Numbered from the stretch's first letter, positions 49,875-63,665 are shown. The stretch is DNA of 64,000 bases from Thermoleophilaceae bacterium (GCA_035553855.1 DATMJO010000163.1:1403-65402), one strand, 5' to 3'. The notes: generated from the sequence alone by a model not told the origin. Translations and numbers: made by a program.

Positions 49875-49926
49875 CCGCGGAGGATGACATCCGCAAGCTT
49901 TCGGCCCTCCATGCGTTGATTGGGAC

Positions 49927-51339: not shown

Positions 51340-51391
51340 GTGTGCTGAGTCGGAAGTTCGGCTTCAGCACGAAATAACGACTCAGCACACT
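51339..51391. terminator. bidirectional hairpin between convergent genes (perfect 14-bp stem)
   Basis: AGTGTGCTGAGTCG (51339-51352) pairs with CGACTCAGCACACT (51378-51391). The loop is AT-richer. Confidence 0.6.
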
Positions 51392-52139
51392 ACTGGTCGC
51401 CCGCCAGCTCCTTCCGGCGCATCGACCACATCTGCGAGGCGCGCTCGAGCTCGAGGGCTGCCGCCCAGGGAAGTCCCGGCGGTCCGAGCTCGGTGCGCAG
51501 CGAGCGGGCGGTGCGGCGCGCGAGCTCCGGGTCCTTGGCCGGCCGGGATGCGAGCTCGAAGGCGGTGTCGTCCACGGCGCCGTCGTCCACCGCGGCCCAG
51601 GCGAGCCCCAGCTCCGCCGCGCGCGCGCCGTCGATCCGCTCGCCGAAGAGCGCGAGCGCCGCAGCGGCCTCGCGCTGGCCCGTCCTGCCGAGCAGGACGC
51701 CGTGGCCGCCGCCGGGGTGGAGCCCGATCGGCAGGAACCCCGAGATGAGCTTCGCCTCGCTCGCCACCACGCGCAGGTCGGTGGCGAACGCGAGGTTCAT
51801 GCCGGCGCCGACCGCGCCGCCACGGATCGCCGCCACGGTCGGCGGCTCCAGCTCGCCGACGCGCTGGAAGGAGCGGTAGACCGCCCCGAGGCCGGTGTAC
51901 TCGGCGGGAGCGGACGGATCGCGGCCGGCCGCGGCAAGCGTGGCGCGGTCGCCGCCCGCGCAGAAGTAGCCGCCCTCGCCGCGGACGACGACGGCGCCCA
52001 CGGCGGCGTCGGCGTCGACCTCGTCGCACGCGGCGACGAGCGCCTCTCCCATCTCGCGCGTCAGCGCGTTGCGCCGGTCGGGCGCGTTCAGGCTGATTAC
52101 CGCGACGCCATCGCGGCGCTCAACGAGGACCTCGCTCAC
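51390..52139 (-). CDS. enoyl-CoA hydratase/isomerase family protein
   Basis: ISLNAPDRRNAL, FCAGGD and AAIRGGAVGAGMNLAFATDLR are present. The start is GTG (VSEVLVERRDG). Confidence 0.88.
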   Translation of the reverse strand: MSEVLVERRDGVAVISLNAPDRRNALTREMGEALVAACDEVDADAAVGAVVVRGEGGYFCAGGDRATLAAAGRDPSAPAEYTGLGAVYRSFQRVGELEPPTVAAIRGGAVGAGMNLAFATDLRVVASEAKLISGFLPIGLHPGGGHGVLLGRTGQREAAAALALFGERIDGARAAELGLAWAAVDDGAVDDTAFELASRPAKDPELARRTARSLRTELGPPGLPWAAALELERASQMWSMRRKELAGDQ

Positions 52140-52149
52140 GGACCGAAGC

Positions 52150-52980
52150 CTATTCAGGCCCGGCATCCGCCATGCGGCACGCCTCGACGAGGTCGGGCCG
52201 GCGCGCGCCGCGGGCGTCGAGCCCCCAGGTGAGCCCGCGCAGGGCGAGGAGTGCGGGCAGCCAGCGCGGCGCGCACACCCGCCGCGAGCGCGCCTCGACG
52301 CCGCGCGCGACCGCCGCTCCCGCGACCCCGACCGGATAGCGCTTGGCCAGCGGGCCCGGAATGCCGCTCCGTGCCTTCTGCGCCAGCGGGTGCGACGAGG
52401 CCGTGTTGGAGAGGACCGTGTCGATGAAGCCGAAGTAGCCGATGCCGACCTCGGTGCCGGTGTAGGCGAGTTCCATCCGGAGGTTGCGCGCGAACGCCTC
52501 GACCCCGGCCTTGCTCGTCGCATAGGCGGTGGACAGGGGAAGCGGCGCGACGGCGGCGAGGGAGGCGATCGCCAGGACGTACCCCCGGCGCTCGACCACG
52601 TGCGGAAGGGCCGCGCGGACGCTCCGCCAGACCCCCATCAGGTTCACCTCGAGCACCTGCTCGAAGGCGGCGGGGTCGACCCTGCGCACCGAAGCGGCGG
52701 CGCCGTTCACGCCGGCGTTCGCGACGACCGCGTCGATCCCGCCGAGGCGCTCCGCGCACTCGGCGGCCGCAGCCTCCATCGCCCGGAGATCGGTGACGTC
52801 GGCGGCGATGCCGATGGCGCGCTCGCCGATCGCTTCGGCGCGCCGCTCCACCGCCTCGCGCTCGCGATCCACCAGCGCGACCCGCCAGCCGCGGCCCGCG
52901 AGGCGCTCGCCCGCGTCGGCGCCGATCCCGCGCGCACCGCCGGTGATCAGCGCGACCTTGCCCCCTGCGGCAGCGCTCAT
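52150..52980 (-). CDS. SDR-family oxidoreductase
   Basis: ALITGGARGIG, ANAG and YATSKAG are present. An ATGA overlap joins it to the upstream gene. Confidence 0.9.
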   Translation of the reverse strand: MSAAAGGKVALITGGARGIGADAGERLAGRGWRVALVDREREAVERRAEAIGERAIGIAADVTDLRAMEAAAAECAERLGGIDAVVANAGVNGAAASVRRVDPAAFEQVLEVNLMGVWRSVRAALPHVVERRGYVLAIASLAAVAPLPLSTAYATSKAGVEAFARNLRMELAYTGTEVGIGYFGFIDTVLSNTASSHPLAQKARSGIPGPLAKRYPVGVAGAAVARGVEARSRRVCAPRWLPALLALRGLTWGLDARGARRPDLVEACRMADAGPE

Positions 52981-53417
52981 GCCGGCATCTTCGCGTCCCG
53001 GGCCAGGCGCATGCCTGCACGTGCCACGGCCGGCCAGGCGCGAGGGCGCCCTATGACCGCCGCGAGCAGCGGGAGGGGATCGAAGTAGGAGACGCGCAGC
53101 AGCGCCTTGCCGTCGTCGCCGAGCTCGAACCGGTCGACGGCGCGCCAGGCCAGCGCCCGCCCTCCGAGAGTGCAGCGCAGGGTGAACTCGATCAGCACCC
53201 CGTCGCCCGCCGCGGCGCTCCGGTCGACCGTCGCGGCCAGGTCCGGCAGGAACGCGAGGAGCGCGCGGAACGATCGCCGGCCGGCGTCCAGGCCGCGGGT
53301 GTCCGGGGTGAGCGGCTGCCGCAGCACGACGTCGGCGGCGAGCAGATCGCCGAGCGTGTCGGGGTCCGGCCTCAGCCACCACGCGGCGAACCGGTCGGCG
53401 AAGTCCTCGCCGCTCAT
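52977..53417 (-). CDS. SnoaL/NTF2-like fold protein
   Basis: Its size and pattern fit this fold (FAAWWLRPDPDTLGDLLAADVVLRQP...). It is coupled to its neighbours on both sides. Confidence 0.65.
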   Translation of the reverse strand: MSGEDFADRFAAWWLRPDPDTLGDLLAADVVLRQPLTPDTRGLDAGRRSFRALLAFLPDLAATVDRSAAAGDGVLIEFTLRCTLGGRALAWRAVDRFELGDDGKALLRVSYFDPLPLLAAVIGRPRAWPAVARAGMRLARDAKMPA

Positions 53418-54067
53418 CGCGGGGCCATCCCGCCGGCGGCCGGCGCGAAGACCCGGCGCATGCGGGCGATGTCGCCCGCGCTGCCCGAGACCCGCAGGCG
53501 GTCCCCCGCCGAGCCCCCCACAGCGGCGAGGAAGGCCGCCGCGTCCCCCTCGATCACGACGTGGGGCTCCTCGGCGGGCCCGTCGGCCACCTGAACGGCG
53601 CCGCCGCCCGTCACCGCGTGGAAGACCTCGCCGTCGAGCCGGAACTCGTACGCGCGGCGCGGCCCGCTCGCCGCGTCCGCGTCGTGAAGGGTCCTCATCG
53701 CCATCGCGATCCAGCGCGCCCTGACGGCCCGTCCCGGAGCCGGTGCGCCGAGCCGCCGGATCCCGAACCGCGCGAGGCCCTCGAGCACGGGCTCGAGCAG
53801 GCGGCCCTCGCCGGTCAGCTCGTAGACGACCGAAGCGGCGGGCGGCGGGAGCGTCCGTCGCATGACGAGCCCCTCCGACTCGAGCTCACGCAGGCGGGAG
53901 GCGAGCAGGCCCGTGCCGATCCCCGGCAGCCCTTCGAGCAGGTCGGTCCAGCGGCGCGGGCCGGGCACCAGCTCTCGCACGAGGAGGAGGGTCCAGCGCT
54001 CGCCGACCAGATCGAGCGCGACCGCGATCCCGCAGTGCTGGGTGTAGGAGCGCGGCATGGTTCCCAA
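53414..54067 (-). CDS. HxlR-type winged-helix regulator with an SCP2-like C-terminal domain
   Basis: CGIAVALDLVGERWTLLLVREL is the HxlR signature. It is divergent from the hydrolase gene. Confidence 0.8.
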   Translation of the reverse strand: MGTMPRSYTQHCGIAVALDLVGERWTLLLVRELVPGPRRWTDLLEGLPGIGTGLLASRLRELESEGLVMRRTLPPPAASVVYELTGEGRLLEPVLEGLARFGIRRLGAPAPGRAVRARWIAMAMRTLHDADAASGPRRAYEFRLDGEVFHAVTGGGAVQVADGPAEEPHVVIEGDAAAFLAAVGGSAGDRLRVSGSAGDIARMRRVFAPAAGGMAPR

Positions 54068-54124
54068 GAGTACACTCCATGCTTCATGTTCTTGAAGCTC
54101 GATGGTGGCGCGTCAGGGCAGGCG

Positions 54125-55006
54125 ATGCCCGAGGTCCCCGGCGTCCGCCATTCGCGGGTGCGGGCGGGCGAGGTCACGCTCCACGTGGCCGAGGCGGGCG
54201 AGGGCCCGCCGCTCGTGCTCCTCCACGGCTGGCCTCAGCACTGGTACCTCTGGCGCGACGTCATTCCGGTGCTCGCCGCCGACAACCGGGTGATCTGCCC
54301 CGACCTGCGCGGGTTCGGCTGGTCGGACGCCCCCCGGGCCTCCTACGACAAGGAGACCCTCGCCCGCGACGTCATCGCCCTGCTCGACGCCCTCGGGCTC
54401 GACCGGGTGCGGCTCGCGGGGCACGACTGGGGTGGGTGGACCGGCTTCCTCGTCTGCCTGCTCGCCCCCGAGCGGGTGGAGCGCTTCGTCGCGCTCAACA
54501 TCCCCCACCCCTTCACCGGCCACGGGCCCCGCGGCCTGCTCACGCTGTGGCGGTTCGCCTACCAGGTGCCGCTTGCCCTTCCGGGGCTCGGGAGCCGGAC
54601 CAGCCGCTGGCTCGCATCCTGGGACTCGGCTCGCGCGCAGCGCGCTGGCATGCCGTGGGACCCCGCGGAGACCGACACCTTCCTCGGCCAGTTCGCCGAG
54701 CCCGCCCGCGCTGAGGCGGCATCGCGGGTCTACCGCTCCTTCATCACGACCGACATGCCGCGCTCGCTGTCGAGCCGCTACCGGGCGATGCGGCTGCGCA
54801 CCCCCACCCTGATCCTGCACGGGACCGGCGACCCCGCGGTCCGGCCGGTCCACCTGGAGGGGTACGAGCCCTACGCCGACGACCTCCGGGTAGAGCTCGT
54901 CCCGAGTGCCGGCCACTTCATCGTGGACGAGCAGCCCGACCTCGTCGCCACCCGCCTGCGCTCGTTCCTCGGTGGGAGCTCTCAGGCCGGCGCCGAGACC
55001 GGGTAG
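54125..55006 (+). CDS. alpha/beta hydrolase (epoxide hydrolase/haloalkane dehalogenase-like)
   Basis: LLHGWPQHWYLW and GHDWGG (nucleophile elbow) are present. An alternative ATG lies at 54086. Confidence 0.88.
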   Translation: MPEVPGVRHSRVRAGEVTLHVAEAGEGPPLVLLHGWPQHWYLWRDVIPVLAADNRVICPDLRGFGWSDAPRASYDKETLARDVIALLDALGLDRVRLAGHDWGGWTGFLVCLLAPERVERFVALNIPHPFTGHGPRGLLTLWRFAYQVPLALPGLGSRTSRWLASWDSARAQRAGMPWDPAETDTFLGQFAEPARAEAASRVYRSFITTDMPRSLSSRYRAMRLRTPTLILHGTGDPAVRPVHLEGYEPYADDLRVELVPSAGHFIVDEQPDLVATRLRSFLGGSSQAGAETG

Positions 55007-55104
55007 CGCTCCCGCCACGCGTCGAGTCCGCCCTCGAGCGCCGCGGCCCGGAACCCCATGACGATGAGCTTCGACGCCGCACGGGCGCTCGTCTCCTCGC
55101 TCAG
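54982..55104 (-). other. in-frame continuation encoding the second half of the rhodanese domain after the TGA at 55107..55105
   Basis: LSEETSARAASKLIVMGFRAAALEGGLDAWRERYPVSAPA* matches the rhodanese C-terminal helix-strand-GGxxAW pattern. It overlaps the 3' end of the convergent hydrolase gene. Confidence 0.55.
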
Positions 55105-56562
55105 TCAGGTGCAGTAGAGCACGATGAGGCGGTCGCGCTCCTGGTCGCGCGCCCAGTCCGAGATCCGGTCGGCGGGCACGCGAACGGCGCCCGCTATTCC
55201 GTCCGGGTCGCGGCGCACGGCGGAGCGCGAGCGGACATCGACCACGACCGGCGGCTCCGGGCCCTCGAGGAGCTCCGCCAGCTCGGCGACCCCGACCCGC
55301 GGGGCGCGGTCCGGATCCGGGCGGAGCAGGCCGCCGACCGTGCTCTCGCGCTCCTCGGGGTGCACGGTCTCCTCGATCCGGCGCCCGTACCAGGCGCTGA
55401 AGGGCGTAGCCGTCGTGCCGTGCAGGAAGACCGATACGAGCACCACGAACCCGGCGAGGCCGAAAAGCTCGGACCCGTTCGGGACGCCCGCCTCCACCGC
55501 GATCAGGATCAGGAGCAGCGAGTTGAGGCCGCGCGGGCCGAACCAGGCGATGAAGGCCCGGCCGTCGCGGCTCATGTCTACGTGGCGAACCGAGAGCATC
55601 CACCCGAGGGCGAGCGGGCGGGCGATGAGCAGGGCGACCGCCGCGAGCAGCAGCCCCTCTCCCGCCGGCACGGCGCCAAGCTCGGACGACAGCACGATGC
55701 CGAACAGGACGAAGGAGACGAGCATGAGCAGCTCGGCGATCACCTCACCGAAGTCGAGGAAGCAGTCGCAGAGCGTCTTGTTGGACAGCGAGACCGCCGC
55801 CCCGGCGGCGAACGAGGCGAGAAAGCCATCGGCGCCGAAGGTCTCACCCGCGCTGAAGGCCCCCAGGACCAGCGCGATGCCGTAGAGGGCCTGCCACTCG
55901 CGGCGGACGGGCCTGCGCGCGTCCACCTCGTGCATCAGCGCCGCCCCGGCGAGGCCCACGGCGGCCCCGAGCAGCGGTCCCACGAGAACGAGCTGGATTC
56001 CGAACCAGGCCCAGTCCGCCGCGCCCCCCACGTTGCCGGCGGCGACGGCGGCCAGTACCAGGACCGGGGGGAGCACGAAGACGTCGTTCGTGCCGGCCTC
56101 GACCGTGAGGGCGCGGCGGACCGAGTTCGGGATCCGCTCGTCCCCGACGACGTCGCGCAGCACGACCGGGTCCGTGGACGCGAGCGCGGCGCCGAGCAGG
56201 AACGCCGGCACGGGGTCGAGGCCCGCCACGAGCATTGCCGTGACGGCCACGATCGCGACCACGATCGCCGCGCCCGGCCCGAGGGTGAGGGCCGGAACGA
56301 GCCACTCGCGCCGGACGTGGCGCAGGTCGAGGCTGACCGCGTCGAGGAACAGGACGAGCGCGAGCGTGGCGAACGCGACCGTGCGGAGCGCGTCGTCCTC
56401 CAGGTGGATCTCGACCGCGCCGGTCGCGCCCTCGCCCAGCACTAGCCCGAGCGTGAGGAAGATCATCGGGAACGACAGCGGGAGCCGGTCGATCACCCCG
56501 GCGAGCAGCGCGGAGACGGCGAGGACCGCGGCCCCGACCGCGAACAGCCCTACCGGGTCCAT
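55105..56562 (-). CDS. CPA1-type cation/proton (Na+/H+) antiporter fused to a rhodanese domain that is cut by a TGA
   Basis: The core is multi-TM (ATDPV, GPRG). The C-terminal VVVDVRS...DRLIVLYCT is the first half of a rhodanese fold. Confidence 0.88.
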   Translation of the reverse strand: MDPVGLFAVGAAVLAVSALLAGVIDRLPLSFPMIFLTLGLVLGEGATGAVEIHLEDDALRTVAFATLALVLFLDAVSLDLRHVRREWLVPALTLGPGAAIVVAIVAVTAMLVAGLDPVPAFLLGAALASTDPVVLRDVVGDERIPNSVRRALTVEAGTNDVFVLPPVLVLAAVAAGNVGGAADWAWFGIQLVLVGPLLGAAVGLAGAALMHEVDARRPVRREWQALYGIALVLGAFSAGETFGADGFLASFAAGAAVSLSNKTLCDCFLDFGEVIAELLMLVSFVLFGIVLSSELGAVPAGEGLLLAAVALLIARPLALGWMLSVRHVDMSRDGRAFIAWFGPRGLNSLLLILIAVEAGVPNGSELFGLAGFVVLVSVFLHGTTATPFSAWYGRRIEETVHPEERESTVGGLLRPDPDRAPRVGVAELAELLEGPEPPVVVDVRSRSAVRRDPDGIAGAVRVPADRISDWARDQERDRLIVLYCT

Positions 56563-56692: not shown

Positions 56693-57655
56693 TCAGCCGA
56701 GGCGCACGTGCAGCCGCACGACGCTGCCCGACTCGAAGCTGCGCAGCTGGACGAGGTCGCAGACCTGGTTGACGAGCCAGAGACCGTGGCCTCCGATCTG
56801 CCCGCCGGTGGGGCACACCCGGCCGGCGAGCGGCTCGTCGATCCGGCCGGAGTCCGCGATCTCCAGCACGAGACGTCCGTCCTCGCGCCACATCCGGAGC
56901 TCACCCCCGCCGCCGCCGTAGCGCACGCTGTTGGTCGCGACCTCGTTCGCGGCCAGCACGACGTCTTCACCGCGCTGGGAATCGATGCCGGCGTTCGCGG
57001 CGTGCACGGCGACGGCGCGCCGGACGAGGTCGAGCCCGTCGATGTCGAACGCCAGCGAGAAGGGCCGGACCGCGGGCTCCGGGAGAGGCGCGGCGAAGGG
57101 CGCGGCGATCGCGCTGAGACCGGCGAAGCGGTCGCTCTCGCACGCGCCACCCTCGTCCACGACGACCGGGTGGGTCGCGCGGGCCGTCTCGACCACTTCA
57201 GGGTCGAGCGCCGCGACGTCGTATGGGCAGAGGAGGTTGAAGGCCGCGGTGTCCGCGAACGCCACGTTGAGGAGCGACTCGTGCCGGTGGCACTCGACCA
57301 TCTCCGCGTGGTCGCGGCCGGGATGGATCGGCTCGCCGATTCCCCTGATCCCGCCGTTGTGCGAATGCTCGTCCGCGAAGTCGCGCCAGGCCGGGATGAT
57401 GCGGGCGGGATTCGCGCCGACCTCGGCCATGTCGGCGAACGAGACGGCGTCCGCGTCGGAGCCCAGTTCCCCGCGGAGCATGCGGATCTTGCGCGCGGAG
57501 ACCACGACGAGCGTGGCCTCGTCGCGCTCGAGCCCGTCGCGGATGTACGGCACGGTGCCGGCGAGGAAGCCCTCGTCGCCCTCGTACATCAGGGCTCCGT
57601 GGACGAACGAGCCGGGCTCGTGGTCGTGGTCGTGAGCGCTCGCGATGGCCGTCAT
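56693..57655 (-). CDS. MEDS-domain plus HATPase (RsbW-like) anti-sigma-factor kinase
   Basis: The N-terminus HGALMYEGDEGFL...VVVS is MEDS-like. The C-terminus is ANEVATNSVRYG..GHGLWLV. An ATGA overlap joins it to the upstream gene. Confidence 0.8.
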   Translation of the reverse strand: MTAIASAHDHDHEPGSFVHGALMYEGDEGFLAGTVPYIRDGLERDEATLVVVSARKIRMLRGELGSDADAVSFADMAEVGANPARIIPAWRDFADEHSHNGGIRGIGEPIHPGRDHAEMVECHRHESLLNVAFADTAAFNLLCPYDVAALDPEVVETARATHPVVVDEGGACESDRFAGLSAIAAPFAAPLPEPAVRPFSLAFDIDGLDLVRRAVAVHAANAGIDSQRGEDVVLAANEVATNSVRYGGGGGELRMWREDGRLVLEIADSGRIDEPLAGRVCPTGGQIGGHGLWLVNQVCDLVQLRSFESGSVVRLHVRLG

Positions 57656-58569
57656 CCGTCCGCCCTCCCGTGCCCGTTCGCGCCCGAGACCACCGCGAGC
57701 TGCGGACAGTCGAGCCAGCCGCAAATGGAGAGGAGGCGACGCACGTAGTCGGGAGGGTCGAGCAGCACGAGGAACCGGCCCTGTTCGAGCTTCATCGACG
57801 CCTGGACGAGAATCCTGCAGCCCGTGAGGTCGATGAATGAAAGGCGTCGCGCATCGATCACTATGTCCTCATCGCCCGGAAGGTGCTCGGCGATGCGGGC
57901 CGCGACGTATGGCGCCGTGTCGAAGTCGATCTCGCCCGACAGCTCGACCCCGGGCACGCCATGGCGCTCGGTGACCGTCACGGGACCCCGGCTCGCCGCC
58001 GTCGCGGCGCCGTCTGCCCAGATCCGGTGGGCGTGCGCGCCGACGAGGTCGTCGAGCACGTCGTCCGGGAACACGTCGCGGTCGAACTGACACGCGCCGA
58101 CGAGGTCGGCGCCGGCGAAGATCCGCCCCAGCCCGCGCTCGTACTCCAGGACGCGGCCGAAGTCCTCGGGTGCGTCGAGCATCCAGCTCATCTCGCCCAT
58201 GACGGCCAGGGCCGAGTAGCCGTCCTGACGCGCGCGGCGGCGCTCGGCGTCGAAGGCGTCGATCTGGCGCTCGGGGTCGAAGCCACCGTCGCCGTAGGCC
58301 CCGGCGGCCGCGCCGAGCTCGAGCGCCCCGCCGTCGAGCCGTGAGGCGCTGTCGAGGCCGGCATCGTCGAGCCAGGAGCGGACCGTGCCCTCGTCCGTCG
58401 TGTGCGCGAGGTAGAGCAAGCGCGCGTCGCGCGCCCACGCGTCACGGGCGAAGCGAATCAGCGCCTCCCGATGATCGTCCTCGGACGCGGTGGTCACGCA
58501 GAAATGGTCGCCGGGAGCGACCCCTGCAAGCGCCCTGCCAGCCAGAGCCCCACCAGGCTCTCCGCACAT
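57652..58569 (-). CDS. MEDS-domain plus STAS (anti-anti-sigma) fusion protein
   Basis: The N-terminus DHFCVTTASEDDHREAL...LLYLA is MEDS-like. The C-terminal IDARRLSFIDLTGCRILV is STAS-like with Thr at the phospho-site position. Confidence 0.72.
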   Translation of the reverse strand: MCGEPGGALAGRALAGVAPGDHFCVTTASEDDHREALIRFARDAWARDARLLYLAHTTDEGTVRSWLDDAGLDSASRLDGGALELGAAAGAYGDGGFDPERQIDAFDAERRRARQDGYSALAVMGEMSWMLDAPEDFGRVLEYERGLGRIFAGADLVGACQFDRDVFPDDVLDDLVGAHAHRIWADGAATAASRGPVTVTERHGVPGVELSGEIDFDTAPYVAARIAEHLPGDEDIVIDARRLSFIDLTGCRILVQASMKLEQGRFLVLLDPPDYVRRLLSICGWLDCPQLAVVSGANGHGRADG

Positions 58570-58638: not shown

Positions 58639-60096
58639 GTGGCTATCGTGCCCTTTCGGGTGGCTCGTACCTGGGATCTCGTGGTGATCGGCGGCGGAAG
58701 CGCCGGCCTCGTGGCGTCGCTGACCGCCGCGGGCCTCGGCGCGCGGGTCGCACTGGTCGAGCGCGACCGCCCCGGCGGGGACTGCCTGTTCACCGGCTGC
58801 ATCCCCTCGAAGGCGCTGATCGCCTCGGCCCGCCTCGCGCACGACATGCGTCACGCCGGCCGGCTCGGCCTGACGCCCGCCGATCCGGAGGTCGACTTCG
58901 CGCGGGTCATGGAGCGCGTGGGAGGCGCGATCGAGGCCGCGGGCAGGGAGGACACGCCCGAGCACCTGCGCTCCGAGGGCGTCGAGCTCGTCGAGGGCGA
59001 AGCCGCCTTCGCCCGTCCCGGGGTCGTGATCGCGGCCGGGCGGGAGCTGCGCTTTCGCGCCGCGCTCATCGCGACCGGGTCGCGCCCCGCGCTCCCCCCC
59101 GTGCCGGGGCTCGCCGATGCCGCGCCCCTCACCAACGAGGACGTGTTCGGGCTGACGGAGCTGCCGCCGCGGCTGGCTGTGCTCGGCGGGGGCCCGATCG
59201 GTGTCGAGCTGGGCCAGGCCTTCGCCCGCCTCGGTAGCCGCGTGCAGATCGTCGAGATGGCCGACCGGCTGCTGCCCCGCGAGGAGCCGGAGGCGGGCCT
59301 CCTCATCGGCGAGCGCCTGGCCGGCGAGGGCGTGGGGGTCCACACGGGCACGCGGGCCGTGCGGGTCGAGTCCGGCGTGCTGCATGGGCGCGGGCCCGCG
59401 AGCGACGTCGAGGTCCCGTTCGACCGCCTGCTAGCGGCCACCGGCAGGCGTCCGGTGACCGACGGACTCGGGCTGGAGCGCGTAGGCGTCGAGACCGACG
59501 AGCACGGCTGGATCCGCGTCGACCGGCGCCTGCGGACGACCGGCGACCACATCTATGCGGCGGGCGACGCGGTCGGCGGCCTGTTCTTCACCCACGTCGC
59601 CGGCTACCACGGGCTGCTCGCGATGGCGAACGCGCTCTTCCGCGTGCGCCAGAAGACCGAGCACGAGGCGATCCCGTGGGTCACGTTCACCGATCCGGAG
59701 GTCGCCCGCGTAGGCATGTCCGAGGCGCAGGCGCGCGCCCGTCTCGGCCGGGACCCGCTCGTCTTCCGCCACGACTTCGAGCGCTCGGACCGAGCGATCA
59801 CCGCGTCGGCCACCACCGGCTTCGCGAAGCTCGTCGCCGACCGCAGGGGCAGGCTGCTGGGCGCCACGATCTGCGGCGAGGCCGCGGGCGAGAGCATCGC
59901 CGAGGCCGCGCGGCTCGTCCGCGACGGCGGCAAGGTCGCCGAGCTGTCGCAGATGGTCCACGCATACCCGACGTTCACCGAGGCGCCGGCGCGCGCCGCC
60001 GACGACTGGTGGCGGCGGAAGTACTTCACGACGGGGGCGCGCCGCTTCTACAGGCCGCTGTTCGCGCTGATGCGGGTGCTCGACCGCCCGCGCTGA
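58639..60096 (+). CDS. pyridine nucleotide-disulfide oxidoreductase (dihydrolipoyl dehydrogenase/mercuric reductase-like)
   Basis: DLVVIGGGSAGL and GGDCLFTGCIPSK (the CxxxxC redox disulfide) are present, with a second Rossmann motif LAVLGGGPIGVE. Confidence 0.9.
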   Translation: MAIVPFRVARTWDLVVIGGGSAGLVASLTAAGLGARVALVERDRPGGDCLFTGCIPSKALIASARLAHDMRHAGRLGLTPADPEVDFARVMERVGGAIEAAGREDTPEHLRSEGVELVEGEAAFARPGVVIAAGRELRFRAALIATGSRPALPPVPGLADAAPLTNEDVFGLTELPPRLAVLGGGPIGVELGQAFARLGSRVQIVEMADRLLPREEPEAGLLIGERLAGEGVGVHTGTRAVRVESGVLHGRGPASDVEVPFDRLLAATGRRPVTDGLGLERVGVETDEHGWIRVDRRLRTTGDHIYAAGDAVGGLFFTHVAGYHGLLAMANALFRVRQKTEHEAIPWVTFTDPEVARVGMSEAQARARLGRDPLVFRHDFERSDRAITASATTGFAKLVADRRGRLLGATICGEAAGESIAEAARLVRDGGKVAELSQMVHAYPTFTEAPARAADDWWRRKYFTTGARRFYRPLFALMRVLDRPR

Positions 60097-60109
60097 CGGG
60101 CCGGGCGCC

Positions 60110-60928
60110 TCAGGCGCGCTCGGCGACCAGCAGGCTGTAGCCGAGCCTGCCTGCGGCGACCTCGGCCAGCGCCGAGCGCGACAGCTCGATGCCGAGCTCG
60201 ATCTTGTCCGCGTACTCGCCGAGCGCGAGCGCCCCGCCGATGATTCGGGCCGCGCGCAGGCGGGCCTCCGCCCGGTCGATCATCGAACGGAGCGCGTCCG
60301 AGTGGTCCTCTGTCGCGGTCACCCGCAGGCCGGCTTGCTCGAGCAGCGCCACGTAGCCGTCGAGAGGCAGGGCGTCCGCGACGCAGGCGACCTGAGAGGC
60401 GGCGTTGCGGAGGGCCTCGGGGAGATCCTCGAAGCGGGCCGTCATGTCGGTGATCGCGAGGCGCCCGCCCGGGCGCAACACCCGCGCCATCTCGCTCGCC
60501 GCGGCCTCCTTGTCCGGGAAGGTGCACATCGAGCATTCGCAGATCGCGAAGTCGAAGCCCGCGTCGGCCAGCGGGAGCGCCTCGGCGTCACCCTGGACGA
60601 ACGAGACGCGCGCGGCGAGGCCCGCGGCGTCGGCTCGCCGGCGGGCCCGCGCGACGGCCTCGCGGCCGTAGTCCACGCCAACGGCATCGACACCGGCCTC
60701 GGCGGCGAGCAGGCAGGCGGTGACGCCCGCCCCGCTCGCGATGTCGAGCGCACGCTCCCCGGCCGCCAGGCCCGCGACGGAAGCCGCCCGCAGCGTGAGG
60801 TCGCGGCCGCCCGGGTGAAGCACGTCGCCCAGGAGCCAGCGCGCCGCGTCGCTCTCGTAGGCGGTCGCGCAGCATGCCTTCGCTTCGGCTCCGGCGAGCA
60901 GCGGGCCGCGGCCCGGCGCGCCGCTCAC
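60110..60928 (-). CDS. Cys-rich class I SAM methyltransferase, ArsM-like Cys spacing
   Basis: Motif I is ALDIASGAG. Cysteines lie at KACCATAY, AICECSMC and QVACVADAL. The GTG start overlaps the radical-SAM stop (GTGA). Confidence 0.8.
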   Translation of the reverse strand: MSGAPGRGPLLAGAEAKACCATAYESDAARWLLGDVLHPGGRDLTLRAASVAGLAAGERALDIASGAGVTACLLAAEAGVDAVGVDYGREAVARARRRADAAGLAARVSFVQGDAEALPLADAGFDFAICECSMCTFPDKEAAASEMARVLRPGGRLAITDMTARFEDLPEALRNAASQVACVADALPLDGYVALLEQAGLRVTATEDHSDALRSMIDRAEARLRAARIIGGALALGEYADKIELGIELSRSALAEVAAGRLGYSLLVAERA

Positions 60929-62316
60929 TGCCTCGCCCCCGCGACCAGGCCGGCGCGCACCTGCTCGCGGTAGCCGACCGAGTTGTACGCGCAGAAGGGG
61001 ATCAGGCGGCCGTCCGGCGTGATCTCCGAGACGCAGCACTTGCGGAGCTTGCGGACGTCGAGGGTGTAGGGGTCCTGGAAGTCCTGGACGACGACCATGA
61101 AGCCCATCGCGGCCACCTCCTGCAGCTCCGGCGGCAGCCCCACGCCGCAGGCGACGCATTCCAGCCGCTCGCCCGTCGGCCCCGTGCCGCCGGCCGCCGA
61201 GGCGGAGAACAGGCCCTCGAGCGCGGCCCGCACCTCGAGGTCCGGGACCGCGCGGTTGGTGACGTAGTCGAGGTAGTCCTCCACGTCGACAAGCCGCGGG
61301 AGCGGCACGAGGTCCTCGCCGTCGTAGAGCGCGTAGGTCGCCGAGCGGCAGGTCGGTGCGCAGCAGGGGACCGCCACGAAGTCGTCCTCGCGGAACCACT
61401 CCGGCAGCTGGTCGCAGATCGCGCGGATGGCCTCGACGTTCGTCAGGCGCTCGAGCGGGTCGAAGTCGAGGAAGCGCCCGGCGTGCGTCACCGGCTGGAC
61501 GAACACGCCGTTGACCGCGGGGTGCTCGACGCCGAAGCGCACGATCGCGCCGACCTCGTCGTCGTTGACCCCGCGCTCGACCGCGGCCGCGAGCGACACG
61601 CTGACCCCGGCCGCCGCGCAGGCATCGAGCGCGGCCTGCTTCTCCCGCTGGAGCAGGCGGCCCCGGATCGCCATTTGCGTCGAGTCCTTGAATCCGTCGA
61701 ACTGGAGGTACACGTGGACGCCGAGCTCGGCGAGCGCGGGCGCGAAGCGCTTGTCACGAGCGAGGCGGATCCCGTTCGTGTTCAGCATCACGAGCTTGAT
61801 CCCGCGCTCCCTGGCGGCCGCGAGCATCGGCAGGATGTCCTTGTGGATCGAGGGCTCGCCGCCCGAGAACTGGATCGACTCGGGCTCGCCCTCGGCCTCG
61901 ACAAAGACATCGAGCATCCGCTCGACCTGCTCGAGCGTGAGCGAGAAGCCTCCATCCGAGCCGTGCGCCGGCCCGGTGCCGGACTCCGCGAAGCAGATGG
62001 GACAGTCCAGATTGCAGGCCGTGTTGACCTCGATGATCCCGAGACACGAGTGCTGCTCGTGGGCGGGGCATATGCCGCAGTCGGTCGGGCAGCCCTCGAC
62101 CTCCTCGGTCTGGAGCGCGAGCGGGCGTGAGCCCGGCTTCGAGTGCTTCTGGATCTCCTCGTAGCGCCGGGCGTCTCCGTAGACGAGCGACTCGAAGTCA
62201 CCGTGCTCGGCGCAGGTCTTGCGCATCACCACGCGGCCGTCGCGCTCGGCGACCTCGGCCGGAACCGGAACGCGGCAGTCCGGGCAGATCGATGTGGTGG
62301 TCTCGGGCAGGGTCAA
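60925..62316 (-). CDS. radical SAM enzyme with an N-terminal zinc-ribbon/rubredoxin-like module and extra Cys clusters (MJ0619/Tes-like architecture)
   Basis: CNLDCPICFA (CxxxCxxC) is present. The N-terminus has CPDC...CAEH and CPTDCGICPAHEQHSC. The C-terminus has RKCCVSEITPDGRLIPFCAYN. The start is tentatively TTG 62316. Confidence 0.82.
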   Translation of the reverse strand: MTLPETTTSICPDCRVPVPAEVAERDGRVVMRKTCAEHGDFESLVYGDARRYEEIQKHSKPGSRPLALQTEEVEGCPTDCGICPAHEQHSCLGIIEVNTACNLDCPICFAESGTGPAHGSDGGFSLTLEQVERMLDVFVEAEGEPESIQFSGGEPSIHKDILPMLAAARERGIKLVMLNTNGIRLARDKRFAPALAELGVHVYLQFDGFKDSTQMAIRGRLLQREKQAALDACAAAGVSVSLAAAVERGVNDDEVGAIVRFGVEHPAVNGVFVQPVTHAGRFLDFDPLERLTNVEAIRAICDQLPEWFREDDFVAVPCCAPTCRSATYALYDGEDLVPLPRLVDVEDYLDYVTNRAVPDLEVRAALEGLFSASAAGGTGPTGERLECVACGVGLPPELQEVAAMGFMVVVQDFQDPYTLDVRKLRKCCVSEITPDGRLIPFCAYNSVGYREQVRAGLVAGARQ

Positions 62317-62370: not shown

Positions 62371-62997
62371 GTGATCCGACCTGTGCTTCCCTCCGTAGTA
62401 ACCCCGATGGCCCTCCCCCGCATCAAGCGCCGGCACCTCGAGCGGCTCGCCGACGAGGAGCTGATGCCGCTCGTGGCCCAGCAGGACACCGCCGCGTTCG
62501 ACCTCGTCTACGAGCGCCACGGCGCCGCGGCGTACTCGCTGGCCTTCCGCGTGGTCGGCAACGCGCGCGGGGCCGAGGACGTGACGCAGGAGGCGTTCAT
62601 GTCGCTCTGGCGCACGGGCGCACGCTACGACCGCGCGCGCGGCAGCGTCCGCAACTGGATCCTCTCGATCGTGCGGAATCGCGGCGTGGACATGATCCGC
62701 CGCGAGGCGAGCCAGCGGGTCGACGCCTACCGCGACCCCGATGACGTGCTCGCCACGCGGGCCTCGCCCGAGCGCACCGACGAGCAGGTCGAGGAGCGGG
62801 ACACCGCGGAGCGGCTGCGGAGCGCGGTCGGCGAGCTGCCGGACGACCAGGCACGTGTGATCGAGCTGGCCTACTTCGGCGGCTTCAGCCACTCGGAGAT
62901 CGCCGAGATGCTCGACATGCCGCTCGGCACCGTAAAGGGCCGAATGCGGCTTGCGCTCGAGAAGATGAGAGGGCAACTTGTAGGGGCCTCGCCATGA
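62371..62997 (+). CDS. ECF (group 4) sigma factor, SigK-like
   Basis: DVTQEAFMSLW (region 2) and FGGFSHSEIAEMLDMPLGTVKGRMRLAL (region 4) are present. An alternative start is ATG 62407. Confidence 0.9.
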   Translation: MIRPVLPSVVTPMALPRIKRRHLERLADEELMPLVAQQDTAAFDLVYERHGAAAYSLAFRVVGNARGAEDVTQEAFMSLWRTGARYDRARGSVRNWILSIVRNRGVDMIRREASQRVDAYRDPDDVLATRASPERTDEQVEERDTAERLRSAVGELPDDQARVIELAYFGGFSHSEIAEMLDMPLGTVKGRMRLALEKMRGQLVGASP

Positions 62998-63665
62998 CGA
63001 CCGACACCCACTCCCGCTTCGAAGGCGATCTCGCCGCGTACCTCCTCGGGGCGCTCGGCGACAGCGAGCGGCGCGACTTCGAGCGCCACCTCGACGGCTG
63101 TCCGCGCTGCCAGGAGGACCACCGCCGGCTTCAGGTCTCGGTCAAGGCACTCGGCGAAGCCGTCCCCCAGCTCGATCCCCCTGCGTCCCTCGGGCGGGCG
63201 CTCAGGCGACGCGCCCGCGCCGAGCGCCGCGGCGGAGCCGCGGCGCGGCTCCGTCCCGTCCTGCGGCCGGCCGCTGGCATGGCGGCAACGGCAGCCGTGG
63301 CGGTGGGCGTTGCCGTGCTCGTGACGGACGGCGGGGAGAGCAGCAGGGCCACGACCGTGGCGGCAGTCGCGACGCCGGCCGCTCCCCGCGCCGAGGCGAA
63401 GCTCGTCGTACACGAAGCGAGCGCCGAGCTCATCGTCGAGAGCTTGCCTCCCCCGAAGCCGGGCCGCGTCTACCAGGTGTGGATCCGTCACGGCAAGCGG
63501 ATCGTCCCCTCGACGCTCTTCACGGTCGACCGCAACGGGCGCGGCGCGGCCGCGATCCCCGGTGGCCTGGGCGCGGGCGCCGACGAGGTCATGGTGAGCG
63601 AGGAGCCCGTGCGTGGAAGCACGGTTCCCACAACGCCTCCCCGCCTGCGCGTCGCCCTCTCCTAG
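62994..63665 (+). CDS. anti-sigma factor, zf-HC2 plus RskA-like extracytoplasmic domain
   Basis: An ATGA overlap joins it to the ECF sigma gene. HLDGCPRCQ, one TM helix and a C-terminal YQVW...P RskA-type motif are present. Confidence 0.85.
   Translation: MTTDTHSRFEGDLAAYLLGALGDSERRDFERHLDGCPRCQEDHRRLQVSVKALGEAVPQLDPPASLGRALRRRARAERRGGAAARLRPVLRPAAGMAATAAVAVGVAVLVTDGGESSRATTVAAVATPAAPRAEAKLVVHEASAELIVESLPPPKPGRVYQVWIRHGKRIVPSTLFTVDRNGRGAAAIPGGLGAGADEVMVSEEPVRGSTVPTTPPRLRVALS

What the first reader, a model, noticed from the sequence alone, without database searches (positions are those of the whole stretch)
60110..62316. Translationally coupled radical-SAM (multi-cluster, zinc-ribbon N-terminus) plus ArsM-like Cys-rich methyltransferase
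Seen in the sequence: the radical-SAM ORF has a CPDC...CAEH ribbon and a CPTDCGICPAHEQHSC cluster. It also has the CNLDCPICFA radical-SAM motif and a C-terminal KCCVSEITPDGRLIPFCAYN. Its TGA overlaps the GTG of the methyltransferase (GTGA at 60925-60928). By my residue count the methyltransferase has motif I at about residue 61 and cysteines at 19/20, 130/132/135 and 182. The spacings are about 69 aa from motif I to the central Cys and about 52 aa from there to the ACV Cys. These resemble the conserved Cys174/Cys224 layout of As(III) S-adenosylmethionine methyltransferases (ArsM). Established knowledge: the N-terminal rubredoxin-like site plus several Fe-S clusters is the layout of the MJ0619 / tetraether-lipid-synthase type of radical-SAM enzyme. 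Radical-SAM/ArsM pairs are the core of organoarsenical pathways (ArsL/ArsM for arsinothricin, ArsS/ArsM for arsenosugars). Inference: this pair may make a methylated C-metalloid or an unusual lipid or cofactor product. The radical-SAM architecture here does not look like ArsS, so the pairing may be undescribed. A divergent ECF sigma/anti-sigma pair and a convergent CxxxxC flavoprotein disulfide reductase flank it.
Basis: partly seen in the sequence, partly recalled or inferred. Interest (0 to 1): 0.65.

Follow-up and report, generated by a model that had tools for sequence, protein, structure and literature searches.

The report
Tes-like radical-SAM with ArsM-like methyltransferase
A radical-SAM enzyme built like the archaeal tetraether-lipid synthase is locked to a cysteine-rich, arsenite-methyltransferase-like partner in many soil bacteria; the pair is real and widely conserved, but what it makes is unknown and nothing links it to arsenic.

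Summary
All quoted motifs, residue numbers and the GTGA stop/start overlap are in the sequence.

**Radical-SAM protein.** It is a full-length homologue of GDGT-MAS/Tes (PDB 7TOL, E 1.8e-75, model TM 0.84) with all four metal sites. It scores below the NCBIfam cut-offs for both Tes (321 vs 450) and TrsS (334 vs 490).

**Methyltransferase.** Its best match is the DVU_1556 family, the partner of TrsS, just under cut-off (147 vs 155). Cys132 and Cys182 align with the two As(III)-binding cysteines of ArsM and are conserved in 52 and 53 of 53 orthologues. It is still not an ArsM: 115 vs 263 bits, no GCG cysteine, no C-terminal domain, and an AtmM/RebM-like fold.

**Synteny.** The methyltransferase lies directly downstream in 53 loci from at least six phyla. 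That covers essentially every radical-SAM homologue at 41% identity or more. Many loci keep the 4-bp overlap, and fused proteins exist. Homologues at 42% identity or less pair instead with an Lgt-like membrane protein.

**Other neighbours.** The only recurrent third gene is the flanking flavoprotein disulfide reductase (19 of 53). Other neighbours are often thiol-redox proteins. No ars genes recur.

**Verdict.** This is a sister clade of the named but uncharacterised TrsS/DVU_1556 pair. I infer it makes a methylated carbon–heteroatom (S, Se or As) bond on an alkyl substrate.

The parts
60925..62316 (-). Radical-SAM enzyme of the Tes/GDGT-MAS (HMPTM zinc-ribbon) superfamily, 463 aa, TTG start.
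   Evidence: Pfam Zn_ribbon_HMPTM plus Radical_SAM. PDB 7TOL at E 1.8e-75 over the full length. AF2 model against 7TOL: E 1.3e-43, TM 0.84. NCBIfam TrsS 334 vs 490 and Tes 320.6 vs 450.
62203..62286 (-). Rubredoxin-like mononuclear iron site, C11-x2-C14-x20-C35-x2-H38.
   Evidence: Same spacing as GDGT-MAS C9X2C12X20C33X2H36. Conserved in 48 to 52 of 53 orthologues.
62044..62091 (-). N-terminal auxiliary [4Fe-4S] motif CPTDCGICPAHEQHSC (C76, C80, C83, H86, H89, C91).
   Evidence: Aligns with GDGT-MAS C73, C77, C80 plus His. Kept in 52 of 53.
61993..62016 (-). Radical-SAM cluster motif C101-x3-C105-x2-C108.
60991..61365 (-). C-terminal auxiliary-cluster region: C318, C319, C323, the clade-specific C387/C390, and C427, C428, C442. 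Gln sits at the position of the labile Met439 of GDGT-MAS.
   Evidence: Alignment to 7TOL, alignments A3 and A4, conservation counts.
60925..60928 (-). GTGA overlap of the radical-SAM stop and the methyltransferase start (translational coupling). A GGGGGCGAGG Shine-Dalgarno-like run lies at 60931-60940.
   Evidence: The same 4-bp overlap occurs in at least 18 orthologous loci and on the M. vanbaalenii plasmid.
60110..60928 (-). Class I SAM methyltransferase, 272 aa, sister to the DVU_1556 family, with an ArsM-like cysteine pair.
   Evidence: NF045667 147.3 vs 155; PRK11873 ArsM 114.6 vs 263. AF2 pLDDT 88.9; Foldseek top hits AtmM, RebM, MitM.
60869..60874 (-). Vicinal Cys19-Cys20 on the N-terminal cap helix.
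   Evidence: Kept in 50 and 52 of 53 orthologues. Helix 13-24 in the model.
60524..60541 (-). C130-E-C132-S-M-C135, immediately after strand beta-4. C132 corresponds to ArsM Cys174.
   Evidence: phmmer alignment to CrArsM 5evj: FDFAICECSMCTFPDK against FDLVISNCVINLSPDK. E131 53 of 53, C132 52 of 53, C135 44 of 53, C130 37 of 53.
60383..60385 (-). Cys182 (ACVADAL), corresponding to ArsM Cys224 (ECLAGAL).
   Evidence: Kept in 53 of 53 orthologues. Also present in the TrsS-linked and the fused methyltransferases.
58639..60096 (+). Convergent FAD/NAD(P)H flavoprotein disulfide reductase with the redox-active pair C49-x4-C54 (58783-58800). Probable accessory component.
   Evidence: Pyr_redox_2 plus Pyr_redox_dim. 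An orthologue lies within about 3 kb of the pair in 19 of 53 loci, in Actinomycetota, Chloroflexota, Acidobacteriota, Armatimonadota and Dormibacterota. In some it is in the same operon, as in L003, L009, L028, L043, L050.

Best explanation
This is a two-enzyme module, often with a dedicated disulfide reductase, that puts a methylated thiophilic heteroatom (X-CH3, where X is S, Se or As and is not determined) onto an unactivated alkyl carbon. It would work as a split version of methylthiotransferase chemistry. Shown: the radical-SAM protein has the complete GDGT-MAS/Tes cofactor set. It is translationally coupled, and in some lineages fused, to a class I methyltransferase. That methyltransferase has invariant Cys132 and Cys182 at the positions that bind As(III) in ArsM. 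Thiol-disulfide redox genes are the recurrent neighbours. Inferred: (1) 5'-dA radical abstracts H from an sp3 carbon of a hydrophobic, probably lipid, chain, as in GDGT-MAS. (2) The alkyl radical is captured either by a sulfide of the C-terminal auxiliary cluster (the intermediate demonstrated for GDGT-MAS) or by a heteroatom held by the methyltransferase cysteines. (3) Instead of a second alkyl radical coupling, the heteroatom is methylated by SAM on the methyltransferase. (4) The oxidised cysteines are re-reduced by the flavoprotein, or elsewhere by CcdA/thioredoxin-like, glutaredoxin-type or mycothiol-dependent partners.
For: Radical-SAM side: the protein matches 7TOL over its full length and keeps the rubredoxin, [4Fe-4S]N, radical-SAM and C-terminal cluster ligands. 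GDGT-MAS forms a substrate C-S(cluster) intermediate.

Methyltransferase side: C132 and C182 align with the ArsM metalloid-binding cysteines. They are kept in 52 and 53 of 53 orthologues, in the TrsS-linked methyltransferase and in the fused proteins P0311 and P0342. C132 follows strand beta-4, at the substrate site of class I methyltransferases.

Coupling: the methyltransferase is directly downstream in 53 loci from at least six phyla, a 4-bp overlap occurs in at least 18 of them, fusions exist, and pairwise identities of the two proteins correlate (Mantel r 0.69, 0 of 2000 permutations).

Thiol-redox neighbours:
- Flavoprotein disulfide reductase in 19 of 53 loci.
- CcdA plus protein disulfide oxidoreductase in L091, L015, L017 and L054.
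- DsbD_TM in L007.
- A glutaredoxin-domain protein, mycothiol S-transferase, a GRDB-like protein and DUF547 directly downstream in other loci.

Lipid theme in relatives: archaeal Tes itself; an Lgt-coupled or Lgt-fused sister clade; and a PlsY-like gene directly after the pair in six Dehalococcoidia loci.
Against: - No substrate or product is known for any member of this clade or of TrsS/DVU_1556. Every chemical step is inferred.
- Overall, the methyltransferase resembles O-, N- and C-methyltransferases of small molecules (AtmM, RebM, MitM, TleD) more than ArsM.
- The cysteines could have another role, such as a methyl-Cys relay, Fe-S contact or regulation.
- The reductase is absent from about 60% of loci.
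- No sulfur, selenium or arsenic supply genes recur.
- Many hosts are aerobic soil bacteria, so the oxygen-sensitive chemistry needs explaining.
Confidence: 0.33

Rival explanations
1. Bacterial Tes: the radical-SAM enzyme joins two lipid tails (iso-diabolic acid or brGDGT-type membrane-spanning lipids), as proposed in the literature for bacterial Tes homologues. The methyltransferase performs a separate lipid methylation or head-group step.
For: Full GDGT-MAS architecture. The clade is abundant in Acidobacteriota, Chloroflexota and soil Actinomycetota, the phyla proposed as brGDGT sources (PMC8941075; PMC11868695). A PlsY-like gene follows the pair in Dehalococcoidia. The radical-SAM protein is very strongly conserved (75-89% identity within classes).
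Against: Tail coupling by Tes needs no methyltransferase. Archaeal Tes and the Lgt-coupled sister clade lack one. An obligatory, fused or overlapping partner with a conserved ArsM-type cysteine pair and thiol-redox neighbours is not explained. SAM-dependent SN2 methylation of a saturated chain is not feasible. Tes homologues were found in only 3 of 14 iso-diabolic-acid-producing Acidobacteria (PMC13159169). The sporadic and plasmid-borne occurrence in Actinomycetes suits an accessory function.
Confidence: 0.2
2. One reading: a true arsenic pathway in which the methyltransferase is a functional ArsM and the radical-SAM enzyme forms a C-As bond, for example an arsenolipid.
For: C132 and C182 match the ArsM As(III) ligands with identical spacing. 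The N-terminal CC resembles the N-terminal ArsM cysteines. A reductase could drive an ArsM-type disulfide cascade (inference from established ArsM mechanism). Radical-SAM/ArsM pairs make arsinothricin and arsenosugars (PMC8552651 and bioRxiv 10.1101/2024.02.01.577332, listed). JGI auto-names many orthologues 'arsenite methyltransferase'.
Against: Below every ArsM model: PRK11873 114.6 vs 263, AST ArsM 42-80 bits, arsenosugar ArsM 50.7 vs 400. HPGG replaces the ArsM YGCG cysteine (the ArsM motif is from my own knowledge). No ArsM C-terminal domain, and no ArsM among the top 50 structural hits. No ars genes reached 5 of the 53 loci or the top 25 Pfam families among 150 nearest neighbours. The radical-SAM protein is unrelated to ArsS or ArsL beyond the core.
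Confidence: 0.12
3. Two-component radical C-methylase: the methyltransferase loads a methyl group onto one of its own cysteines, as in the RlmN/Cfr methyl-Cys mechanism. The radical-SAM partner uses it to methylate an unreactive carbon, and the resulting disulfide or cross-link is resolved by the second cysteine and a reductase.
For: An invariant cysteine pair at the methyltransferase active site. Tight coupling and fusion imply direct hand-over. Disulfide reductase partners. MJ0619 was once classed as a radical-SAM methylase (the HMPTM name).
Against: There is no precedent for a separate class I methyltransferase acting as a methyl-Cys carrier. The pterin-methylase activity of MJ0619 could not be corroborated by the authors of the structure. 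RlmN-type chemistry adds to sp2 carbons.
Confidence: 0.1
4. Pterin or cofactor methylation, as in the database name 7,8-dihydro-6-hydroxymethylpterin dimethyltransferase.
For: JGI automatic names. Some superfamily members are fused to MobA-like NTP-transferase/HD domains, and the TrsS locus sits beside a molybdenum-hydroxylase-like gene.
Against: The GDGT-MAS structure has a long hydrophobic lipid pocket, and its authors could not reproduce the pterin activity. No folate, pterin or molybdopterin genes recur around the 53 pairs.
Confidence: 0.03

Closest known systems
GDGT-MAS / tetraether lipid synthase Tes (MJ0619, PDB 7TOL; NCBIfam NF045702)
   Same: Full-length homology (E 1.8e-75; model TM 0.84, 31% identity). 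Identical rubredoxin motif spacing, the N-terminal CX3CX2C plus His cluster, the radical-SAM cluster and the C-terminal CC...C cluster region.
   Different: Scores 320.6 against a cut-off of 450. The host is bacterial, with no isoprenoid ether-lipid context. The labile Met439 position is Gln. There is an extra conserved C387/C390 pair. It has an obligatory methyltransferase partner that Tes lacks.
TrsS radical-SAM (seleno)protein plus DVU_1556-family methyltransferase (NCBIfam NF045646 and NF045667; attributed to Haft and Tolstoy 2025, mSystems, by the review read; the paper itself is not held)
   Same: Both partners are the top NCBIfam hits. A genuine TrsS (P0382, 571 bits) lies two genes from a genuine DVU_1556 methyltransferase (188.9 bits) in L006. 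E131-C132 and C182 are shared. The function of TrsS/DVU_1556 is also unknown.
   Different: The window proteins fall below both cut-offs (334 vs 490; 147.3 vs 155), as do all ten orthologues tested from other phyla (110-142 bits). The TrsS locus also has C_GCAxxG_C_C, an AMP-binding enzyme and NTP_transf_3-HD, and its methyltransferase is upstream and lacks the N-terminal CC. The window clade has the methyltransferase directly downstream and overlapping, plus a flavoprotein reductase.
ArsM, the As(III) S-adenosylmethionine methyltransferase (CrArsM 5evj, CmArsM 4fr0; PRK11873), and the ArsS/ArsM and ArsL/ArsM pairs
   Same: Class I core. C132 and C182 align with the As(III)-binding cysteines at the same 50-residue spacing. 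N-terminal cysteines are present. It is paired with a radical-SAM enzyme.
   Different: Fails all ArsM models. HPGG sits where ArsM has its GCG cysteine. There is no C-terminal domain. The fold neighbours are AtmM and RebM. There is no ars context. The radical-SAM partner belongs to a different family from ArsS and ArsL.
Methylthiotransferases MiaB, RimO and MtaB (mechanistic analogue only; from established knowledge)
   Same: A radical-SAM cluster, an auxiliary cluster that carries sulfur, and a SAM-dependent methyl transfer install S-CH3 on an unactivated carbon. The GDGT-MAS paper itself compares its auxiliary cluster with those of RimO and MiaB.
   Different: No homology beyond the radical-SAM core. 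In those enzymes both activities lie in one polypeptide, whereas here the methyl transfer would be done by a separate class I enzyme. This is a resemblance of proposed mechanism and was not tested.
AtmM, RebM and MitM capped small-molecule methyltransferases (PDB 6uv6, 3bus, 8zc8)
   Same: Best sequence and structural neighbours of the methyltransferase as a whole (E about 1e-21, TM 0.73-0.77), including the C-terminal helical hairpin and the final GY strand.
   Different: Those enzymes have Glu-Ser or Leu where this family has Cys132 and have no Cys182 equivalent. They are not paired with radical-SAM enzymes.
Lgt-coupled 'bacterial Tes' sister clade (Planctomycetota, Bacillota, Alphaproteobacteria, Bacteroidota)
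   Same: Same superfamily and N-terminal architecture, 36-42% identity.
   Different: It has no methyltransferase. A 255-aa Lgt-like membrane protein is adjacent in 25 of 30 loci or fused (P0262, P0372). The C-terminal KCC...PFC is changed to KSC...PFD.

Membership tests
Tes / GDGT-MAS (NF045702; 7TOL) | Rubredoxin-like CX2C-X20-CX2H, N-terminal CX3CX2C(+His) cluster and CX3CX2C radical-SAM cluster | tested here: met
   C11, C14, C35, H38; C76, C80, C83, H86/H89; C101, C105, C108. Same spacing as published.
Tes / GDGT-MAS (NF045702; 7TOL) | [quoted passage not shown] | tested here: met
   Foldseek 7TOL E 1.3e-43, TMq 0.84; the next hit has TM below 0.4. C318, C323, C427, C428 and C442 are conserved.
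Tes / GDGT-MAS (NF045702; 7TOL) | Labile Met439 ligand of the C-terminal cluster | tested here: not met
   The window and Thermoleophilia have Gln (DFQDP). Other clade members have FMD. This rests on alignment only.
Tes / GDGT-MAS (NF045702; 7TOL) | NCBIfam equivalog score of at least 450 | tested here: not met
   320.6 bits. The nearest representatives score 270-363.
Tes / GDGT-MAS (NF045702; 7TOL) | Couples two lipid tails (C-C bond) in vivo or in vitro | not testable with these tools
   Needs lipidomics or enzymology.
TrsS (NF045646) | NCBIfam equivalog score of at least 490 | tested here: not met
   334 bits. Genuine members P0382 and P0328 score 571 and 552.
TrsS (NF045646) | Neighbourhood seen at the one genuine TrsS locus with usable flanks (L006; a single observed example, not a curated family criterion): DVU_1556 methyltransferase, C_GCAxxG_C_C, AMP-binding enzyme, NTP_transf_3-HD | tested here: not met
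   Only the methyltransferase homologue is present. The window flanks are a reductase and a sigma/anti-sigma pair.
TrsS (NF045646) | Selenocysteine, or the equivalent Cys, at the family's Sec site | not tested
   The Sec position is not available: the defining paper is not held.
DVU_1556-family methyltransferase (NF045667) | NCBIfam equivalog score of at least 155 | tested here: not met
   147.3 bits, a narrow miss. Orthologues from nine other loci score 110-142. The L006 methyltransferase scores 188.9.
DVU_1556-family methyltransferase (NF045667) | Adjacent to a Tes-like radical-SAM enzyme, with conserved HPGG, E-C (after beta-4) and the second Cys | tested here: met
ArsM (PRK11873 / NF008823) | Family model cut-off (263 bits) | tested here: not met
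   114.6 bits. The other ArsM models give 42-88 bits against cut-offs of 240-575.
ArsM (PRK11873 / NF008823) | As(III)-binding cysteines (CmArsM Cys174 and Cys224) | tested here: met
   C132 and C182 align with the SNC and ECLAGAL cysteines of CrArsM 5evj. Kept in 52 and 53 of 53.
ArsM (PRK11873 / NF008823) | N-terminal cysteine pair (Cys44 and Cys72, the YGCG motif) needed for the first methylation | tested here: not met
   HPGG occupies the place about 20 residues before motif I. A CC at 19/20 exists, but its equivalence to Cys44 is unproven. The ArsM motif itself is from my own knowledge.
ArsM (PRK11873 / NF008823) | ArsM C-terminal domain and ArsM-like overall structure | tested here: not met
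   The protein is 272 aa and ends in a helical hairpin like AtmM and RebM. No ArsM is in the Foldseek top 50.
ArsM (PRK11873 / NF008823) | Genomic association with ars genes | tested here: not met
   No ars-like cluster reaches 5 or more of the 53 loci. No Ars family is in the top 25 Pfam families of 150 nearest neighbours.
ArsM (PRK11873 / NF008823) | Methylates As(III) | not testable with these tools
   Biochemical assay required.
ArsS / ArsL radical-SAM C-As synthases | Membership of those radical-SAM families | tested here: not met
   Neither is among the 25 NCBIfam families shown, out of 41 hits. The top hits are TrsS, Tes and generic radical-SAM/SPASM families. The architecture is that of GDGT-MAS.
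MerA mercuric reductase (for the flanking flavoprotein) | Score of at least 454, a C-terminal Cys pair and an NmerA domain | tested here: not met
   378.6 bits. There are no C-terminal cysteines in 12 aligned orthologues and no N-terminal metal-binding domain.

The most novel reading that the evidence does not exclude
The pair is a previously unrecognised route to lipid-linked methylated heteroatom compounds. A Tes-type enzyme would activate the terminal carbon of an acyl or alkyl chain. An ArsM-like cysteine-pair methyltransferase would deliver and methylate S, Se or As on it. One possible product class is the dimethylarsinoyl fatty acids and hydrocarbons (arsenolipids), whose biosynthesis is, to my knowledge, unsolved; methylthio- or methylseleno-lipids are others. 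On this reading, a large share of the 'bacterial Tes homologues' now used as markers of brGDGT producers (Acidobacteriota, Chloroflexota, Actinomycetota) would do different chemistry.
Probability: 0.1. Interest if true: 0.85.

Novelty: new variant of a known kind. Interest (0 to 1): 0.55.

Why it matters
**Bearing on lipid biomarker work.** Bacterial Tes homologues are cited as candidate brGDGT synthases and are counted in metagenomes to infer lipid producers (PMC8941075, PMC11868695). None has been tested experimentally. This analysis shows they split into at least two clades with different obligatory partners. One is methyltransferase-coupled (Actinomycetota, Chloroflexota, Acidobacteriota, Armatimonadota, Dormibacterota and some archaea). 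The other is Lgt-coupled (Planctomycetota, Bacillota, Proteobacteria, Bacteroidota). The simple tail-coupling model does not explain an ArsM-like, cysteine-pair methyltransferase or the thiol-redox helpers.

**Scale.** The family is very large: thousands of metagenomic sequences, with 75-89% identity within classes. It has no assigned function.

**Tractability.** It offers a small two- or three-gene system for finding new radical-SAM chemistry. Cultured hosts exist: Kitasatospora hibisci, Streptomyces vastus, Dictyobacter alpinus, and a Mycolicibacterium vanbaalenii JOB5 plasmid.

Tried and rejected
- **Defence system.** PADLOC gave only generic viperin and mad2 core hits. Rejected.
- **RNA and transcription signals.** No riboswitch or other RNA leader: no Rfam hit in 56-64 kb. 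No sigma-70 promoter. The single terminator-like hit lies inside the radical-SAM gene and is at chance level.
- **MerA identity of the flavoprotein.** Rejected: no C-terminal Cys pair and below cut-off.
- **ECF sigma/anti-sigma as part of the system.** No sigma cluster recurs in 5 or more of the 53 loci. Treated as a local neighbour.
- **Arsenic context.** Looked for by clustering all ORFs within +/-7 kb and by a Pfam census of 150 nearest-neighbour ORFs. Nothing was found. ORF calling was heuristic, and small ArsR or ArsC genes in fewer than five loci could be missed.
- **The paper that defines TrsS.** Haft and Tolstoy 2025 (PMC12013261, doi 10.1128/msystems.01417-24) is not held. A search for DVU_1556 found no paper.
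- **Solibacter usitatus and Koribacter versatilis.** I tried to learn whether their Tes homologues (Zeng 2022) belong to the methyltransferase-coupled clade. Unresolved.
- **Cysteine geometry.** Model coordinates are not exposed, so the Cys-Cys and Cys-SAM distances could not be measured.
- **Second TrsS locus.** The contig for P0328 was only 1.4 kb.

Full report
**1. Observation.** On the minus strand, an ORF from TTG 62316 to the TGA at 60925 encodes 463 aa. It carries CPDC...CAEH (C11, C14, C35, H38), CPTDCGICPAHEQHSC (C76-C91), CNLDCPICFA (C101, C105, C108) and KCCVSEITPDGRLIPFCAYN (C427, C428, C442). TTG 62316 is the only in-frame start between the zinc ribbon and the divergent sigma-factor gene.

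The stop of this ORF overlaps the GTG of a 272-aa ORF (60928-60110), giving GTGA at 60928-60925. A GGGGGCGAGG run precedes it. In the second protein, motif I is at residues 61-68 and the cysteines are at 19, 20, 130, 132, 135 and 182. I checked the codons by hand.

**2. The radical-SAM protein.**
- Pfam finds the HMPTM zinc ribbon plus Radical_SAM.
- Among solved structures, only GDGT-MAS (MJ0619, 7TOL) matches over the full length (E 1.8e-75).
- An AF2 model (pLDDT 84) matches 7TOL with E 1.3e-43 and TM 0.84. Every other hit has TM below 0.4.
- The published cofactor motifs are reproduced with the same spacing. These are the rubredoxin C9X2C12X20C33X2H36, the N-terminal cluster C73/C77/C80 plus His, CX3CX2C, and a C-terminal cluster that forms a C-S bond with the lipid.

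There are two differences from GDGT-MAS. Gln replaces the labile Met439 in Thermoleophilia. An extra C387/C390 pair is conserved in the clade (52 and 44 of 53).

In NCBIfam it scores 334 on TrsS (cut-off 490) and 320.6 on Tes (cut-off 450). Its nearest 50%-cluster representatives behave the same way. It therefore belongs to the superfamily but to neither named family.

**3. The methyltransferase.**
- The best NCBIfam model is the DVU_1556 family (147.3 vs 155), then ArsM PRK11873 (114.6 vs 263).
- A phmmer alignment to Chlamydomonas ArsM (5evj) places C132 on the SNC cysteine and C182 on the ECLAGAL cysteine. These are the two As(III) ligands of ArsM, by established knowledge, and the 50-residue spacing is the same.
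- Overall, however, the best sequence and structural neighbours are AtmM, RebM and MitM (model pLDDT 88.9). No ArsM appears in the Foldseek top 50.
- There is no ArsM C-terminal domain. An invariant HPGG occupies the place of the ArsM YGCG cysteine.

It is ArsM-like at the active-site cysteines but is not an ArsM.

**4. Synteny.** A scan of one genome per species returned 80 loci. I added loci from metagenome look-ups. Findings from tblastn:
- A homologue of the methyltransferase lies immediately downstream on the same strand in 53 loci.
- That covers essentially every radical-SAM homologue at about 41% identity or more.
- The hosts are Actinomycetota (including Kitasatospora hibisci, Streptomyces vastus, Mycobacterium sp. 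SM1 and Kribbella), Chloroflexota, Acidobacteriota, Armatimonadota, Dormibacterota, a Thaumarchaeota MAG and a Heimdallarchaeota MAG.
- Exceptions are two Anaerolineae loci (L041, L048) and three truncated or partial ones (L010, L029, L057). L058 (Ktedonosporobacter, 42%) also lacks the methyltransferase, and I count it with the 42%-or-less homologues.
- The methyltransferase is absent from the loci at 42% identity or less, apart from the Heimdallarchaeota locus L056 (41%, paired).

Further support for coupling:
- The 4-bp overlap recurs in at least 18 loci and on a Mycolicibacterium vanbaalenii JOB5 plasmid.
- Two 50%-cluster representatives are methyltransferase-radical-SAM fusions (P0311, P0342).
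- Across the 53 pairs, C19 is kept in 50, C20 in 52, HPGG in nearly all, E131 in 53, C132 in 52, C135 in 44 and C182 in 53. The radical-SAM metal ligands are kept in essentially all.
- Pairwise identities of the two proteins correlate (Mantel r 0.69, 0 of 2000 permutations). Shared phylogeny contributes to this value.

**5. Relation to TrsS/DVU_1556.** Two representatives are genuine TrsS (P0382 at 571 bits, P0328 at 552). In the P0382 locus, a methyltransferase two genes upstream scores 188.9 on NF045667, above cut-off. It shares E-C132 and C182. A near-TrsS protein (P0289) is also followed by a methyltransferase.

So the general pairing is already captured by NCBI curators. A 2026 review attributes TrsS to Haft and Tolstoy 2025, which I could not read. 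The window pair is a co-diverged sister clade. All ten methyltransferases tested from other phyla score 110-142, below cut-off. The accessory genes also differ.

**6. Neighbours.**

| Neighbour | Where |
|---|---|
| Flavoprotein disulfide reductase, orthologous to window 58639-60096 (GGDCxxTGCxPSK, no C-terminal cysteines) | Within about 3 kb in 19 of 53 loci across five phyla; sometimes in the same operon (L003, L009, L028, L043, L050) |
| CcdA plus protein disulfide oxidoreductase | Plasmid L091, L015, L017, L054 |
| DsbD_TM | L007 |
| DUF547 | L002, L008 |
| Glutaredoxin-domain protein | L047 |
| Mycothiol S-transferase | L020 |
| GRDB-like protein | L061 |
| Glutaredoxin, deiodinase-like and AhpD-like genes | Plasmid L091 |
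| Second methyltransferase | L001, L009, L031 |
| PlsY-like gene directly after the pair | Six Dehalococcoidia loci |

No ars-type family recurs. The ECF sigma/anti-sigma adjacency is not conserved.

**7. Sister clade.** Homologues at 36-42% identity (Planctomycetota, Bacillota, Alphaproteobacteria, Bacteroidota, Cyanobacteria) lack the methyltransferase. In 25 of 30 loci they have an adjacent Lgt-like membrane protein. Lgt is fused in P0262 and P0372 and annotated as such on a Chondrinema plasmid. Their C-terminal KCC...PFC is changed to KSC...PFD. Together with archaeal Tes, this gives the superfamily a lipid theme.

**8. Mechanism (inferred).**
- Tight coupling and fusion argue that the two enzymes act on the same, probably protein-bound or reactive, intermediate.
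- GDGT-MAS chemistry supplies an alkyl radical and a C-S(cluster) adduct.
- The partner supplies an ArsM-type thiolate pair positioned at a SAM methyl donor.
- The helpers are disulfide reductants.

The most economical reading is a split methyl-heteroatom transferase. It would be analogous to MiaB and RimO but with the methyl transfer outsourced. It would install X-CH3 (X = S, Se or As) on an unactivated, probably lipid, carbon (confidence about 0.33).

Rivals:
- Genuine lipid tail coupling with an auxiliary methylation (0.2).
- A specifically arsenical pathway (0.12).
- A methyl-Cys relay for radical C-methylation (0.1).
- Pterin or cofactor methylation (0.03).

**9. Verdict.** The feature is real, conserved and non-trivial. 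The claim of an undescribed pairing holds only in part. A homologous pair is already named, without function, while this clade and its reductase association are not covered by existing models.

- Novelty: new variant of a known kind.
- Interest: 0.55. It is a large family of unknown function, with plausible new radical-SAM chemistry and direct bearing on the use of bacterial Tes homologues as lipid-biomarker genes. There is no experimental handle yet.

Noticed in passing
Loci L058, L060 and L062-L087; proteins P0262 and P0372; plasmid hit H2: A sister clade of Tes-like radical-SAM enzymes (36-42% identity; Planctomycetota, Bacillota, Alphaproteobacteria, Bacteroidota, Cyanobacteria) is paired with an Lgt-like membrane protein of about 255 aa in 25 of 30 loci, or fused to it. 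Two C-terminal cluster cysteines are lost (KSC...PFD).
   Followed up: partly
Proteins P0331, P0304, P0354, P0341: There are other fusions in the superfamily: MobA-like NTP_transf_3 (with or without HD) N-terminal to the radical-SAM domain, and DUF5714 C-terminal to it.
   Followed up: no
L006:1605-11762: A genuine TrsS locus contains a molybdenum-hydroxylase-like gene, a Fer4_20/CCG protein, DUF7479, a DVU_1556 methyltransferase, C_GCAxxG_C_C, TrsS, an AMP-binding enzyme and a divergent NTP_transf_3-HD. This is a different accessory set from the window clade.
   Followed up: partly
L091 (Mycolicibacterium vanbaalenii JOB5 plasmid NZ_CP126902.1, 120233-139618): A plasmid-borne copy of the pair (60% identity, 4-bp overlap) sits beside CcdA and a protein disulfide oxidoreductase. 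Glutaredoxin, deiodinase-like, AhpD-like and MFS genes and a second, small radical-SAM gene are nearby.
   Followed up: partly
window 61072-61080 (residues 413-415, DFQDP) and 61147-61158 (C387-C390): Thermoleophilia have Gln where GDGT-MAS has its labile Met439 cluster ligand, while most other clade members keep Met. A clade-specific CxxC(G) loop, absent from GDGT-MAS, is conserved (C387 in 52 of 53, C390 in 44 of 53) and falls in a low-confidence loop of the model.
   Followed up: partly
Proteins P0508-P0524: A single 90%-identity cluster of the acidobacterial-type radical-SAM protein holds proteins from MAGs labelled Acidobacteriaceae and Eremiobacterota/Baltobacteraceae. Orthologues are 80-89% identical across acidobacterial classes. 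This points to very strong constraint, recent transfer or binning error.
   Followed up: no
window 62371-63665 (+): A SigK-like ECF sigma factor is coupled by a 4-bp overlap to an RskA-type anti-sigma factor. The zf-HC2 region of the anti-sigma factor reads HLDGCPRC, an HxxxCxxC motif like those of redox-sensing ZAS anti-sigma factors. The pair is divergent from the radical-SAM gene across about 90 bp. The adjacency is not conserved in other loci.
   Followed up: partly
window 56693-58530 (-): Two adjacent genes each begin with a MEDS sensory domain. One is fused to a HATPase_c_2 anti-sigma-type kinase domain and the other to a STAS domain. This looks like a partner-switching module with MEDS inputs.
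   Followed up: no
window 60094-60112: The methyltransferase and the convergent reductase stop codons are only 13 bp apart, which leaves no room for separate terminators. None was detected.
   Followed up: no
window 48549-56562: Other nearby genes are a cytochrome P450 (48549-50261), a SnoaL-like protein (52977-53417), an alpha/beta hydrolase (54101-55006) and a Na+/H+ exchanger with an unassigned C-terminal extension of about 90 aa (55105-56562).
   Followed up: no
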